From the NCBI RefSeq assembly GCF_030077865.1, contig NZ_JASDDP010000015.1: a stretch of DNA of 24,000 bases; one strand, written 5' to 3'. The position numbers and the translations under genes are program-made. The DNA is from Mycoplasma phocimorsus. GTDB lineage: Bacteria > Bacillota_I > Bacilli_A > Mycoplasmatales > Metamycoplasmataceae. Under the pieces are notes generated by a model. That model did no database searches. It saw nothing but the letters and a program-made list of their open reading frames with translations, and was not told the DNA's origin. Positions 6,130 through 19,621 of the stretch are shown here, piece after piece (the first letter of the stretch is position 1; the number at the start of each line of letters is the position of its first letter).

Positions 6130-6153
6130 TTGTAAATTATTATTAATATAGCG

Positions 6154-6200
6154 GCAATGTTTAACATTTATATATAAATGTTAAACATTGCATTTTATTT
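6154..6200 (+). terminator. Rho-independent terminator of the ABC transporter operon
   Basis: Perfect 17-bp inverted repeat, gcaatgtttaacattta (6154-6170) and taaatgttaaacattgc (6175-6191), followed by attttattt. Confidence 0.7.
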
Positions 6201-6276
6201 ATAAGTAAAAATATTAAAAATTATTTAAAAATATATTTATATTTTAAAAATTAAAAAAATAAAATATATTATATTT

Positions 6277-6282
6277 ATATAA
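6277..6282 (+). promoter_or_regulatory. Candidate -10 box (TATAAT) for the lipoprotein gene
   Basis: TATAAT lies about 40 nt upstream of ATG 6324. The AT-rich context makes chance matches likely. Confidence 0.3.
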
Positions 6283-6323
6283 TATTTAAATATAAAAAAA
6301 TGTTAAATTATGAAAGAAGACTT

Positions 6324-7525
6324 ATGATCAGAAGAAATAAATTAATAACAACTTTTCTTGCGTTATCTAGTTGTGCAATTATTACTATTCCGTTAATTTC
6401 GACACAAAATAATGAACAACAATTTAATATTTCGTATATTAATATAGATAATATTTATACTAATAACTTAACAAAAAGCTACACACCAAATAAAAATACA
6501 ATTCTTAACATTCCTAAAACCAAAAAAGGTTATATTTTTCTTAATTGAGTAGATTCAAAATATAACTTTCCTTTAGACTATATCCCTGCTCTAGAAACAG
6601 GTAATATTATTTTAAAACCTATTTTAATCAAAGAATATATTGGTTTTAGTGAAGCAGAAAGGGACTTTTTACTTTCTAAAAAACAAAATCCAATTTTAAA
6701 ACAATTATTAACTAATATTTCATTAGCTAATGGATATGATAAGTTTAAACTTCAAGAAGAGTTTGTATATCAATTTAAAAATAAGATTGAAGCAGGCGTT
6801 GAACAATTAATTGAAAATTTAGAATTGCAATCATATTATATAAATCAAAACCCTAAAAATTATAGGGGGGGGGGGGCTTTGTTTCAAGTGCTGAAACAAT
6901 GCCAAATTCAAGTCTATGATTATTAAAAACACCAAAATCAAAAAAAACTGGAATTTCATCTAATATTTTTTCTGGTTGAGGTCTTAAAGAATATTTATTT
7001 GGGGGATTTCTTTCTTTATTTGGGTTAGGAGCTCTTACTGGAATTGGTTATGGTATTTATAAGGGTGCTGAAGAAATTAAAAAAAGAATTACCGAAAATT
7101 ATCAAAAAAGATTAGAAAAGTCAAAAAATTATGAACTAACTCTTAAGATAAAAAAAGAAGAATATAAAAGTAAAAGTTGATCAATTTATGCACTTGGAAC
7201 AGGTCTTGAGGGGGGTGTAATAGGAACATTTGATAAAAATGTTCCAAATGATAAAAAAAATGCTAATTTTTCAAATAAAGGTGATGGAAATTTTACTATT
7301 AAAATTGAAAATATAATAAATCTTGAAAAAGTATTAATTACTTTAAAAGTAGATAATGTTGGAGCCGAAAACCAAACTCTTCCATTTTATTTTAATAATT
7401 CTAATAATGAAAAAGAAATATATTTATTAAGCGATTATTATGAAATAGATGCGAAAACTAATCCTCCTACAAAAAAAAGAAACCCAATACCTTTAGGAAC
7501 AGTGACTTTTACTAAAGTAATTTAA
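6324..7525 (+). pseudogene. Surface lipoprotein gene frameshifted at an internal G12 tract. As sequenced it encodes a ~200-aa truncated lipoprotein ending at TAA 6924-6926. The downstream reading frame runs to 7525.
   Basis: The N-terminus 'MIRRNKLITTFLALSSC' gives a basic n-region, a hydrophobic core and the lipobox L-S-S-C (an alternative ATG lies at 6300). Frame 3 runs into the G tract and stops 16 codons later. Frame 2 is open from the tract to TAA 7523-7525 (~215 codons) and includes the hydrophobic segment 'FGGFLSLFGLGALTGIGYGIY'. All of this was verified codon by codon. Confidence 0.7.
6865..6876 (+). repeat. Homopolymeric G12 tract inside the lipoprotein coding sequence
   Basis: Direct count gives G at 6865-6876, flanked by tata and cttt. 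Confidence 0.95.
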
Positions 7526-7592: not shown

Positions 7593-8863
7593 AAACATGG
7601 ACAAAAAAATGTCACCATAAAATTTATTTTACACCGCTGCAACTTGCTGTGGTGTTTTTCATCCCAAATTACTTTGAATTCTCTCATTGTTGTATCAATT
7701 TACGAAATTTCTTATAACTTTTTTAAGTTCTTTTAATGTCATCTTGCTTATTTCAATTCTGTTTAAATATTCTGATTTTAGAATTGAGAATCAATATTCA
7801 TTCTCATGATTATCAAGTGAATTACCCACTCTTGAAGGTGATATTTCACCATTATTATTTCTTATTTTATCAATATACACTTTGTTTGTATATTGAAACC
7901 TATGATCAGAATGGATGATGAATTTTTTACTTTTTGTTATTTTTAATAAATCGTTAACATTATCTAAAACAAAATTTAAATTATTATTAGTTTTATAACT
8001 TATAATCGCAGACAAGAAAACATGATTTTATTTAGAATCCCTTGTTCCTTCAATATAAGTTACATCAGTTGCATAAATGTTTCGATTTTGATTATCGTTG
8101 TAATCTTTGTTTACAATGTTCTCAAATTTAGCAGTTGTATCTTTATTTTCGCGTTCTTTGCGTTTTCGTTTAATCTCGAATTTTAAACATAAACGGTTCA
8201 TATCACGACCTAAAGTACGTAAATTTATATAAATATTGTGCTTTTTAGCAATAAATTGACTTAAACGCACTCTTTTATAAACTTTTTTGTGTGAAGCAAA
8301 TGCATTTATGAGAATGTTGTCATATTCTTTAGTTTTTACAACATTTTCTAACTTTTTTCATCTAAATAGTGTTTTTTTAGAAACATTAAATAGCCTTGCT
8401 AATTCATTTATTGATAGTTTGCCTTTATATTCTCTTACTATTAACTTCTTTTGTTCTTTAGTAAGAGTGACATTTTCTTCAAGGATTGAAAGCAACCTAT
8501 CAACTTTAGTAGAGTTCATTTCTTTCAATGTATTCTTAATTCTCAATTTCTTCTTTTCACGTGCTTTATTACCTGGCCTTCTATTTATGCCCCGCTTATC
8601 TTCAACTAATAAATCTTGCATTCCTTTATTATAATATGAAACAATCCTTATAATCCTTCTGATAATGTGGCGTTTTTTGATAAAAGCTAATTTGTGCGAG
8701 ATGTTAATAACTACCTTTATAGCTCTCGCCATCCCTAATCGCTCATGCTCTTTAAAAATTATTTCAATTTTTTTAGTAAAGTGTCTAGACATTTTTCTCC
8801 TATAACATACAGGCGACATAAAAAGACACTCTATAAAAGAGTGCCATTTTTTTGTCCTAGTTT
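7593..8863 (-). mobile_element. IS3-family (IS150-like) insertion sequence, ~1.27 kb; boundaries are approximate
   Basis: Terminal inverted repeats match 20/23: aaacatggacaaaaaaatgtcac (7593-7615) against the reverse complement of 8841-8863, aaactaggacaaaaaaatggcac. They enclose a DDE transposase reading frame. Confidence 0.7.
7629..8792 (-). pseudogene. IS3-family transposase (single fused frame) interrupted by an in-frame TAA
   Basis: One reading frame runs from ATG 8792 (GGAG 4 nt upstream) to TAA 7629-7631 with TGA read as Trp, broken by a true TAA at 8028-8030. Motifs include HTH 'LSINELARLFNVSKKTLFRW' and the DDE elements 'YATDVTYI', 'IIHSDHRFQY' and 'DNHENEYWFSILKSE'. The C-terminus is 'NWYNNERIQSNLGWKTPQQ'. 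Confidence 0.75.
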
Positions 8864-8883
8864 GATTGTGCTTGTTTATTATA

Positions 8884-19461: not shown

Positions 19462-19536
19462 TGGCTGCCCCAGTTAGATTCGAACTAACGCATGTCGGTA
19501 CCAAAAACCGATGCCTTACCGCTTGGCTATGGGGCA
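19462..19536 (-). tRNA. tRNA-Gln (anticodon UUG), CCA encoded
   Basis: The cloverleaf was folded by hand: a 7-bp acceptor stem (U1-A72), D loop AAGCGGUAA, anticodon stem UCGGU/ACCGA with loop UUUUGGU, and T arm GUUAG-UUCGAAU-CUAAC. The discriminator is G followed by CCA. Confidence 0.9.
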
Positions 19537-19537
19537 A

Positions 19538-19621
19538 TGGTGGGGGGGGAGGGATTCGAACCCCCGAATCCTAAGAAAGTGGGTTACAGCCACCCGCATT
19601 TGGCCGCTTTGCTACCCCCCC
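19538..19621 (-). tRNA. tRNA-Tyr (anticodon GUA), class II with a long variable arm, CCA encoded
   Basis: The acceptor stem is G7/C7, the D loop is AGCGGCCAAA and the anticodon loop is CUGUAAC. There is a long variable arm, the T loop is UUCGAAU and the 3' end is ACCA. Only 1 nt separates it from tRNA-Gln. Confidence 0.9.

What the first reader, a model, noticed from the sequence alone, without database searches (positions are those of the whole stretch)
6865..6876. G12 homopolymer splits a lipoprotein gene: candidate slipped-strand phase or size switch
A run of 12 G is highly unexpected in such an AT-rich sequence. It sits inside an ORF with a clean lipoprotein signal ('MIRRNKLITTFLALSSC'). 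With 12 G, the upstream frame ends 16 codons later at TAA 6924-6926. A second frame is open from the tract to TAA 7523-7525 (~215 codons). That frame includes a hydrophobic segment and a Gly/Asn-rich C-terminal domain. Adding one G (13) or removing two (10) fuses the halves into a ~400-aa protein. The short form keeps the signal peptide and lipobox. The switch would therefore toggle between a ~200-aa lipoprotein and a ~400-aa form, rather than simply on and off. By eye, this is the only long G/C homopolymer in coding sequence in the window.
Basis: partly seen in the sequence, partly recalled or inferred. Interest (0 to 1): 0.75.

Follow-up and report, generated by a model that had tools for sequence, protein, structure and literature searches.

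The report
Poly-G frameshift switch in Mycoplasma membrane-protein gene
A run of 12 G's in this very AT-rich seal-finger Mycoplasma splits one ~400-residue membrane-protein gene into two annotated "genes"; its length differs between strains (12 vs 9), so it is most likely an ordinary slipped-strand phase-variation switch, though no in-frame version has yet been seen.

Summary
G12 at 6865-6876 is the longest homopolymer of any base in a 25.7% GC window, and shuffles give none. The organism is Mycoplasma phocimorsus type strain M5725 (code 4). G12 gives a 200-aa product; G13 or G10 give 400 or 399 aa. GenBank annotates the halves as two hypothetical proteins (QLQ80_01515 and QLQ80_01520). Six intact 391-393-aa paralogues align across the junction over 99% of the length, so it is one gene. 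They carry only CAAGGT at the tract site, so the tract is derived. A second strain has the same gene with G9, so the tract moved by 3 nt while 768 flanking bp collected 5 substitutions. Both alleles are out of frame in the same phase, and no in-frame allele is public. The out-of-frame C-halves stay open and as conserved as the N-half. Best reading (about 0.55): a slipped-strand contingency locus toggling a short N-domain form and a full-length bitopic form. Rivals are a decaying pseudogene, -1 recoding, a homopolymer under-call, and two independent genes. The "clean lipoprotein" label is doubtful. This is a new member of a known kind, with poly-G/C precedents in M. agalactiae. Interest is moderate.

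The parts
6154..6191 (+). 17-bp perfect hairpin followed by a T-rich tail. It is the terminator-like end of the upstream ABC-transporter operon and separates that operon from the switch gene.
   Evidence: (terminator scan) and the sequence. The hairpin belongs to the strain-variable module: homology to strains lacking the gene ends at window 6136.
6214..6272 (+). AT-rich region with several overlapping sigma-70-like hexamer pairs; the candidate promoter of the gene itself (consensus matches only).
   Evidence: There were 23 promoter-like sites against 11 expected in shuffles, so this is weak evidence.
6324..6926 (+). N-terminal ORF as it stands with G12: 200 aa, identical to QLQ80_01515 / MDJ1645766.1. 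It has an N-terminal hydrophobic segment with a formal lipobox (LSSC, Cys17, codon 6372-6374), then an N-domain with a sub-threshold Listeria-Bacteroides repeat signal, then a 16-residue out-of-frame tail.
   Evidence: exact match in M. phocimorsus M5725; Flg_new E 0.02-0.1, below the Pfam cut-off, seen in all members; lipobox pattern.
6865..6876 (+). G12 homopolymer, the frameshift point. In the in-frame versions it encodes Arg-Gly3-4 in a poorly conserved linker. The paralogues have only CAAGGT at this position.
   Evidence: The tract is G9 in strain GCA_030077715.1 (L003 5822-5830).
6879..6899 (+). 8-bp stem, 5-nt loop RNA hairpin starting 2 nt after the tract and ending at the ATG of the annotated second ORF. 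Its significance is unproven.
   Evidence: It is present in both strains but lies within the identical stretch, and the region folds no better than shuffles (z about 0).
6875..7525 (+). C-terminal half in the -1 frame relative to the N-half (216 sense codons plus TAA). GenBank annotates it from ATG 6899 as QLQ80_01520 (208 aa). It contains the central TM helix (about 6992-7060, residues about 224-246 of the fused protein) and an all-beta C-terminal domain (about 7085-7522).
   Evidence: hydropathy; AlphaFold2 model of paralogue P0002: C-domain pLDDT 74-88, beta strands; 76% of paralogue-invariant residues kept; 0 of 20000 shuffles stay open.
6909..6910 (.). Allelic breakpoint. Upstream of it, M5725 and strain GCA_030077715.1 are at least 99% identical. 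Downstream, identity drops to about 66% nt and 49% aa, apart from a near-identical island across the TM-helix codons (about 7036-7083).
7593..8863 (-). IS3-like insertion sequence (1271 bp, 23-nt terminal inverted repeats at 7593-7615 and 8841-8863). Its transposase frame is interrupted by an in-frame TAA at 8028-8030. In M5725 it occupies the position where other strains carry a 454-aa lipoprotein gene, and it marks the right edge of the variable region.
   Evidence: HTH_Tnp_1 and rve_2/rve_3; inverted repeats; homology resumes at 8864; in-frame stop.

Best explanation
The G12 run is a hypermutable homopolymer inside the coding sequence of a single, strain-variable membrane-protein gene of Mycoplasma phocimorsus M5725. 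Slipped-strand mispairing during replication changes the number of G's. Lengths of 10, 13, 16 and so on give a ~400-aa bitopic protein: an N-terminal signal or anchor, an exposed N-domain, a Gly-rich linker, a TM helix and a beta-rich C-domain. All other lengths, including the G12 seen here and the G9 in a second strain, stop translation 13-28 codons after the tract. That leaves a ~200-aa form with only the N-terminal anchor and the N-domain. The tract lies in the least conserved linker, so in-frame length changes only add or remove glycines.

Shown: the tract, the frames, the unity of the gene, tract-length polymorphism between strains, and the intactness of the out-of-frame half. Inferred: that switching is frequent, reversible and adaptive (immune or host-interaction variation), and that the protein is surface exposed.
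For: 1. The tract is far beyond chance and is the longest homopolymer in the window.
2. The fused product aligns end to end with six intact 391-393-aa paralogues at 47-52% identity and 99% coverage. An exhaustive HMM search shows that the full-length relatives with the C-part also have their own N-terminal hydrophobic segment.
3. The paralogues have CAAGGT at the site, so the tract is a derived feature of this one gene.
4. A second strain carries G9 instead of G12. The 768 flanking bp (6130-6864 plus 6877-6909) differ at only 5 positions, so the tract has changed by 3 nt over a very short divergence.
5. The two out-of-frame C-halves are only 49% identical to each other, yet both are free of stops and frameshifts over about 210 codons; 0 of 20000 composition-matched shuffles stay open. 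They keep 76% and 69% of the residues invariant in the intact paralogues, against 73% for the always-translated N-half. Their pN/pS of 0.60-0.77 lies within the range of intact family members, 0.54-1.0.
6. There is precedent in a related Mycoplasma. Poly-G/C tracts of 8-13 nt that differ by +/-1 between strains accompany presence or absence of lipoproteins in M. agalactiae (PMC2824730; PMC12103780).
Against: Both known alleles (G12 and G9) are out of frame in the same phase, and no in-frame allele or product is present in public collections. The gene is missing from this locus in two other strains. The locus carries IS debris. The family also contains ordinary pseudogenes made by a nonsense codon, multi-frame decay or deletion. 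No read-level data were available to show within-culture heterogeneity. Surface exposure and function are unknown: there is no Pfam or NCBIfam family and no significant structural match.
Confidence: 0.55

Rival explanations
1. Decaying accessory pseudogene. The tract is mutable, but the gene has already been lost functionally. The frameshift is simply the inactivating lesion of a dispensable paralogue in an IS-ridden variable region, with no adaptive or reversible switching.
For: Both alleles are out of frame. The gene is absent from this locus in two strains, and it is seen in only 2 of the 6 assemblies sampled. Other family members are plain pseudogenes. An IS3-like copy and an IS-end remnant border the module. 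No ON allele is on record.
Against: A perfect, uninterrupted G9-G12 run has persisted in two strains of a 26% GC genome. Two highly divergent C-halves are both intact and as conserved as the translated N-half. A single +1 slip restores the frame in both strains.
Confidence: 0.2
2. Recoding. The out-of-frame arrangement is the functional state. Either -1 ribosomal frameshifting on the G-run (a perfect X XXY YYZ site) or RNA-polymerase slippage adding one G produces a set fraction of full-length protein alongside the short form. Tract changes in multiples of three (9 and 12) would then be the ones tolerated.
For: Both alleles need exactly the same -1 shift at the RNA or ribosome level, and their tracts differ by exactly one codon. 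An 8-bp hairpin begins 2 nt after the tract. Nouvel et al. also raised 'ribosomal shifting' for M. agalactiae poly-G tracts (PMC2824730).
Against: There are only two alleles, so a shared phase has about a 1/3 chance of arising randomly. The downstream region folds no better than shuffles (z -0.01 and -0.20), and the hairpin lies in the stretch that is identical for other reasons. All six close paralogues encode the protein in one frame without any tract.
Confidence: 0.1
3. Homopolymer miscall. The true tracts are G13 (M5725) and G10 (second strain), each under-called by one base, and the gene is simply intact.
For: Both assemblies are exactly one G short of the in-frame length. Long G runs are error-prone on most platforms (general knowledge). 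The sequencing platform could not be established from the papers held.
Against: Two independent draft assemblies would need the same -1 error. In the window, 38 A/T runs of 7-8 nt inside 16 intact genes show no frameshift, although no other run longer than 8 exists to test the assembly at this length.
Confidence: 0.1
4. Two independent genes, as annotated in GenBank: a short secreted or anchored N-domain protein, and a separately initiated TM plus C-domain protein starting at ATG 6899.
For: GenBank annotates them separately. ATG 6899 lies 25 nt upstream of the first ORF's stop codon, so translational coupling is conceivable. Some family members have different or shorter N-parts (P0013, P0014, P0016).
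Against: The second frame is open right up to the tract, and the residues between the tract and ATG 6899 (GFVSSAET) align with conserved paralogue residues (QGFVSNTET). No Shine-Dalgarno-like sequence precedes ATG 6899. No full-length relative starts at the TM helix; the full-length relatives begin with their own N-terminal hydrophobic segment, apart from fragments and possibly P0016.
Confidence: 0.05

Closest known systems
Poly-G / poly-C tracts in Mycoplasma agalactiae surface-lipoprotein genes (P48-like MAGa1620, MAG1570, MAG3460, MAGa3330/3340, spma loci; Nouvel et al. 2010, PMC2824730)
   Same: G/C homopolymers of 8-13 nt in a very AT-rich Mycoplasma genome sit in or next to genes for membrane or surface proteins. 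Tract length differs between strains, and a frameshift decides whether a complete product is made. As here, most of that evidence is comparative and proteomic rather than from switching assays.
   Different: Most of those tracts lie at the 5' end, where they decide whether the signal peptide and lipobox are in frame, or in 5' UTRs. They differ by +/-1 between strains, giving ON versus OFF. Here the tract is mid-gene, so the OFF state keeps an anchored N-domain. The two strains differ by 3 nt and share the OFF phase. The protein family is unrelated.
Coding-region homopolymer switches Vaa (M. hominis) and P78 (M. fermentans), both poly-A; gsmA glucan synthase of M. agalactiae (from my own knowledge of that literature; gsmA phase variation is mentioned in PMC12103780)
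   Same: Slipped-strand insertion or deletion in a homopolymer inside the ORF truncates a surface component, and switching is reversible at high frequency.
   Different: Those cases are experimentally proven with ON and OFF clones; this one is not. P78 is the substrate-binding lipoprotein of an ABC-transporter operon. The gene here merely lies downstream of an ABC operon, behind a terminator hairpin, and it is absent from strains that keep the operon intact.
Simple-sequence contingency loci of Neisseria, Haemophilus and Campylobacter (poly-G/C in surface and LOS genes)
   Same: An intragenic poly-G tract of 9-13 nt gives three-phase translational switching in genes for surface structures, and the gene belongs to a multigene family.
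   Different: Those genomes carry dozens of such tracts. In about 160 kb of M. phocimorsus and related DNA examined here, this is the only one.
Programmed -1 frameshifting or transcriptional slippage (dnaX, IS3 transposases)
   Same: A homopolymeric slippery run is present and the required shift is -1. A short product and a long product would share an N-terminus.
   Different: There is no supported stimulatory structure, and homologues do not conserve the arrangement.

Membership tests
Simple-sequence-repeat contingency locus (homopolymer-mediated phase variation) | Uninterrupted homopolymer long enough to slip (about 8 nt or more for G/C) in a coding region or promoter | tested here: met
   G12 at 6865-6876 inside the ORF; none in shuffles.
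Simple-sequence-repeat contingency locus (homopolymer-mediated phase variation) | Changing the repeat number moves the gene between a full-length and a truncated reading frame | tested here: met
   G10 and G13 give 399 and 400 aa. G9, G12 and G15 give 199-201 aa. G8, G11 and G14 give 211-213 aa. The full-length form is collinear with intact paralogues.
Simple-sequence-repeat contingency locus (homopolymer-mediated phase variation) | Repeat number is polymorphic between closely related strains | tested here: met
   G12 in M5725 against G9 in GCA_030077715.1, with flanks at least 99% identical.
Simple-sequence-repeat contingency locus (homopolymer-mediated phase variation) | Both ON and OFF repeat numbers are observed in nature | tested here: not met
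   Only two alleles exist publicly and both are 0 mod 3 (OFF). Exact look-ups of the products expected for G7-G15 found only the two known ones. The sample is too small to count as a real failure.
Simple-sequence-repeat contingency locus (homopolymer-mediated phase variation) | High-frequency, reversible switching within a clonal population | not testable with these tools
   This needs raw reads, amplicon sequencing or colony immunoblots.
Simple-sequence-repeat contingency locus (homopolymer-mediated phase variation) | The product is a surface or host-interaction component | tested here: inconclusive
   There is an N-terminal hydrophobic segment and a central TM helix. A consistent but sub-threshold Listeria-Bacteroides repeat signal appears in all members. 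The C-domain evolves fast, with pN/pS up to about 1. There is no experimental or structural confirmation.
Bacterial lipoprotein (signal peptidase II substrate) | Lipobox pattern with Cys at position 15-35 after a basic n-region and an h-region | tested here: met
   LITTFLALSSC with Cys17 matches a PROSITE PS51257-like pattern in both alleles.
Bacterial lipoprotein (signal peptidase II substrate) | The lipobox Cys is conserved in homologues and is followed by a polar mature N-terminus | tested here: not met
   None of the six close paralogues has a Cys there. Here the Cys is followed by AIITIPLIS, so it sits in the middle of a 20-residue hydrophobic helix. By contrast, the neighbouring 454-aa lipoprotein of other strains has C-NSNINK and the distant paralogue P0019 has C-KKNT.
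Bacterial lipoprotein (signal peptidase II substrate) | Acylation and Triton X-114 partitioning | not testable with these tools
   An experiment is required.
Programmed -1 ribosomal frameshift site | Slippery heptamer X XXY YYZ in the 0 frame, with the downstream frame at -1 | tested here: met
   G GGG GGG lies within the tract, and the C-half frame starts at 6875 against the 0-frame codon at 6876.
Programmed -1 ribosomal frameshift site | Stimulatory RNA structure 5-9 nt downstream, more stable than background and conserved | tested here: inconclusive
   An 8-bp hairpin at 6879-6899 lies 2 nt from the tract end. The region has z about 0 against shuffles, and its presence in both strains carries no information because that stretch is identical anyway.
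Pfam PF09479 Flg_new (Listeria-Bacteroides repeat) | Score at or above the gathering threshold of 27 bits | tested here: not met
   13-19 bits in the window protein, all six paralogues and P0017. UniProt nevertheless names the N-half 'Bacterial repeat domain-containing protein'.
ABC-transporter substrate-binding lipoprotein switch (P78-like) | The gene is part of the transporter operon and is retained wherever the operon is | tested here: not met
   A 17-bp terminator hairpin separates it from the ATPase. Strains GCA_030077825.1 and GCA_030077805.1 keep the operon at 99.5-99.6% identity but lack the gene.

The most novel reading that the evidence does not exclude
The out-of-frame configuration is itself the selected state. 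On the G-run, -1 ribosomal frameshifting or RNA-polymerase slippage would make a fixed ratio of a short anchored N-domain and the full-length bitopic protein. That would explain why the tract differs by exactly one codon (G9 versus G12) and why two very different C-terminal cassettes both stay intact behind it. A variant of the idea: in the split state the C-half is initiated at ATG 6899 and inserts on its own, so its fast-evolving beta-domain would face the opposite side of the membrane from where it sits in the fused protein.
Probability: 0.1. Interest if true: 0.65.

Novelty: new member of a known kind. Interest (0 to 1): 0.4.

Why it matters
M. phocimorsus was named in 2023. It is a zoonotic agent of seal finger and septic arthritis, and no antigenic- or phase-variation system has been described for it in the papers I could search. 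This locus is a concrete, testable candidate for such a system. It also corrects an annotation, because two 'hypothetical proteins' are really one gene. It points to a species-restricted, IS-associated family of membrane proteins with rapidly exchanging C-terminal cassettes, which is probably part of the organism's variable surface. For vaccine or serology work that mines the M5725 proteome, it matters that this antigen may be switchable and strain-variable. For the field in general it adds one more example of a well-known mechanism.

Tried and rejected
1. Both genome-contig scans (protein patterns; a DNA pattern allowing any tract length) returned nothing. Strain comparisons therefore came from exact-protein look-ups of the neighbouring ABC ATPase.
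2. No Pfam or NCBIfam family reached threshold.
3. The AlphaFold2 model of paralogue P0002 had low confidence (mean pLDDT 52.8), and only the C-domain was usable. Foldseek against the PDB gave no hit at E <= 0.001, only generic Ig-like sandwiches. No function could be assigned.
4. I considered that the gene is the substrate-binding lipoprotein of the upstream ABC transporter, as with M. fermentans P78. I rejected this because of the terminator hairpin and the gene's absence from strains that keep the operon.
5. I considered that the G-run is a recombination hotspot, perhaps G-quadruplex-like, driving C-terminal cassette exchange, because the allelic breakpoint lies 33 nt after it. This is not supported. 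The intact allele pair P0005/P0006 shows the same conserved-N, swapped-C pattern with no tract, and its breakpoint lies after the TM helix.
6. I checked whether other truncated family members are tract-mediated. They are not: the causes are a nonsense codon, multi-frame decay and deletion.
7. I checked whether the G8 and C7 runs at about 19.5 kb are a second switch. They are the tRNA-Tyr acceptor stem.
8. Exact look-ups for products of tract lengths G7-G15 in both allele backgrounds found none beyond the two known ones.
9. The sequencing platform of the assemblies could not be established from the papers held. Gaurivaud et al. 2016 was not available.

Full report
OBSERVATION

The window is Mollicute DNA: 25.7% GC, with TGA used as a sense codon. 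Table-11 ORFs break at TGA, and table 4 restores long genes. G12 lies exactly at 6865-6876. A run of 9 or more G is found nowhere else and never arose in 100 dinucleotide-preserving shuffles. It is the longest homopolymer of any base in the window, because A and T runs stop at 8. The only other G/C runs of 7 or more (G8 and C7 at 19542-19621) are the two acceptor-stem strands of tRNA-Tyr.

- From ATG 6324, G12 gives 200 aa ending at TAA 6924-6926.
- The other frame is closed by TAG 6863-6865, which overlaps the first G, and is then open to TAA 7523-7525.
- G13 gives 400 aa and G10 gives 399 aa.
- G11 and G14 give 212 and 213 aa.

SOURCE AND ANNOTATION

The two as-is products are exact matches to QLQ80_01515 (200 aa) and QLQ80_01520 (208 aa) of Mycoplasma phocimorsus M5725, the type strain. 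They are annotated as two separate hypothetical proteins. The species was described in 2023 from seal-finger patients (PMC11845139 and PMC12205455).

ONE GENE, NOT TWO

The fused 400-aa product matches six intact 391-393-aa M. phocimorsus proteins at 47-52% identity over 99% of its length. The alignment runs straight through the junction: KNYRGGGGFVSS in the window against KNHL--QGFVSN in the paralogues. The residues between the tract and the annotated ATG 6899 are part of that conserved block.

An exhaustive HMM search of 1.84 billion representatives found only 15 relatives. Almost all are from M. phocimorsus, plus a few from an unnamed ~27% GC mollicute in metagenomes. The full-length relatives that contain the C-part also have their own N-terminal hydrophobic segment. 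At the DNA level the paralogues have CAAGGT where this gene has A(G)12C, so the tract is a derived feature of this one paralogue. No G/C run of 7 or more occurs anywhere else in about 137 kb of related loci, other than this same site in L003.

WHAT THE PROTEIN LOOKS LIKE

The fused protein has these parts:
- A basic N-terminus followed by a 20-residue hydrophobic segment.
- An N-domain of about 160 residues with a consistent but sub-threshold Listeria-Bacteroides repeat signal (13-19 bits against a cut-off of 27, in every member).
- A poorly conserved linker, which holds the tract.
- A Gly-rich TM helix at residues about 224-246.
- A C-domain of about 145 residues, modelled as all-beta with pLDDT 74-88 in paralogue P0002. 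The rest of that model is unreliable.

Foldseek against the PDB gave nothing significant. The lipobox pattern is formally met (LSSC, Cys17). However, the Cys is absent from all six close paralogues and is followed by AIITIPLIS, which is unlike genuine lipoproteins nearby. I therefore regard 'lipoprotein' as unproven.

STRAIN COMPARISON

The neighbouring ABC ATPase is identical in four other assemblies.
- Strain GCA_030077715.1 (L003) has the same gene with G9. The 768 bp flanking the tract (intergenic region, N-half and 33 nt after the tract) differ at only 5 positions, and the 5,086 bp of ABC operon compared are 99.69% identical. The tract has therefore moved by three nucleotides over a very short divergence, which is the signature of a hypermutable site.
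- G9 and G12 are in the same phase, so both alleles need +1 G in the DNA, or a -1 shift on the RNA or ribosome.
- Two further strains lack the gene at this locus through a clean 1,866-bp presence/absence difference.
- One contig ends at the junction.
- The N-half occurs in no other public protein. No product expected for any other tract length from G7 to G15 is on record.

IS THE C-HALF DECAYING?

It is not. Thirty-three nucleotides after the tract, the two alleles drop from 100% to about 66% nt and 49% aa identity, with a near-identical island over the TM helix. Despite this divergence:
- Both C-halves are open for about 210 codons. None of 20,000 composition-matched shuffles stayed open.
- They keep 76% and 69% of the residues invariant among the six intact paralogues. 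The N-half, which is always translated, keeps 73%.
- Their pN/pS is 0.77 between the two alleles and 0.60-0.73 against intact paralogues. That is within the range for intact members: 0.54-0.68 between paralogues, and about 1.0 between the P0005 and P0006 alleles.

Either the C-half is translated often enough to remain under selection, or both inactivations are very recent. Replacement of the C-terminal cassette is a property of the whole family and does not depend on the tract. P0005 and P0006 are alleles of another locus and show the same pattern without any tract.

CONTEXT

A 17-bp terminator hairpin separates the gene from the upstream ABC operon. In M5725 the gene is followed by an IS3-like element at 7593-8863. 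This element has 23-nt inverted repeats and a transposase frame broken by an in-frame TAA, and it occupies the place of a 454-aa lipoprotein gene present in the other strains. In L003 a ~56-bp remnant of both IS ends marks the right border of the module. Other family members also lie beside IS30 or IS3 remnants. Several are ordinary pseudogenes, made by a nonsense codon, multi-frame decay or deletion, with no homopolymer involved.

INTERPRETATION

The best-supported reading is a slipped-strand contingency locus (confidence about 0.55). The steps that are shown are the tract, the frames, the unity of the gene, the inter-strain length change and the intact C-half. The steps that are inferred are reversibility, frequency and adaptive value.

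The rivals are:
- A hypermutable tract in a gene that is already dispensable and decaying (0.2).
- Recoding by -1 frameshifting or transcriptional slippage, with the out-of-frame state being the functional one (0.1). The shared phase and the one-codon difference are suggestive, but there are only two alleles, and the 8-bp hairpin after the tract is no better than background.
- A one-base under-call in both assemblies (0.1). In the window, 38 A/T runs of 7-8 nt in 16 intact genes show no frameshifts, but nothing longer is available to test.
- Two truly separate genes (0.05).

COMPARISON WITH WHAT IS KNOWN

Functionally and anatomically, this matches the poly-G/C tracts described in M. agalactiae lipoprotein genes and spma loci. 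Those include G8 against G9, C9 against C8, G10 and up to G13 (PMC2824730; PMC12103780). More generally it matches coding-region homopolymer switches in Mycoplasma and Neisseria, which I cite from my own knowledge. It differs in three ways:
- The tract is mid-gene, so the OFF state retains an anchored N-domain.
- The protein belongs to an unrelated, species-restricted family.
- No ON allele has been documented.

VERDICT

It is a new member of a known kind, of moderate interest (0.4).

Noticed in passing
window 19462-19621 (-): tRNA-Gln(ttg) and tRNA-Tyr(gta) lie in tandem. The G8 (19542-19549) and C7 (19615-19621) runs are the two strands of the tRNA-Tyr acceptor stem and are not a second switch.
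   Followed up: yes
window 7593-8863 (-): IS3-like element with 23-nt terminal inverted repeats. Its ~396-codon transposase frame is one ORF broken by an in-frame TAA at 8028-8030, so it is probably an inactive copy. It replaces the 454-aa lipoprotein gene found at this position in other strains.
   Followed up: partly
L003 6903-6958: A ~56-bp palindromic remnant made of both ends of the same IS (MITE-like). It sits exactly at the right border of the 1,866-bp gene module that is absent from strains L004 and L005.
   Followed up: partly
L010 3001-4182 vs L011 3001-4182: P0005 and P0006 are alleles of one locus in two strains. The first ~260 codons are 95-100% identical, and the last ~133 codons are 62-83% identical with pN/pS about 1.0. 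C-terminal cassette replacement or diversifying selection is therefore a general property of this family.
   Followed up: partly
L001 6001-10040; L003 5281-8707: Family members tend to be followed by a paralogous ~445-454-aa lipoprotein gene (72% nt identity between the two loci), which suggests a two-gene module. IS30 (HTH_38) or IS3 (rve) remnants lie next to most of the copies examined.
   Followed up: no
whole fused protein (window 6324-7525): Simple topology logic (basic N-terminus, then TM1, exposed N-domain, TM2) places the fastest-evolving C-terminal beta-domain in the cytoplasm. That is odd for a hypervariable domain, and the topology is unresolved.
   Followed up: no
window, whole: In a window that is 74% AT, the longest A or T homopolymer is only 8 nt. 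Long A/T runs appear to be avoided, which makes the G12 stand out further.
   Followed up: partly
L013 691-6927 (ENA ERZ27257960 contig k141_24320): In an unnamed ~27% GC mollicute from metagenomes, the short family relative P0013 (308 aa) follows two proteins of 831 and 849 aa with faint Flg_new hits. This may be a larger surface-protein cluster.
   Followed up: no
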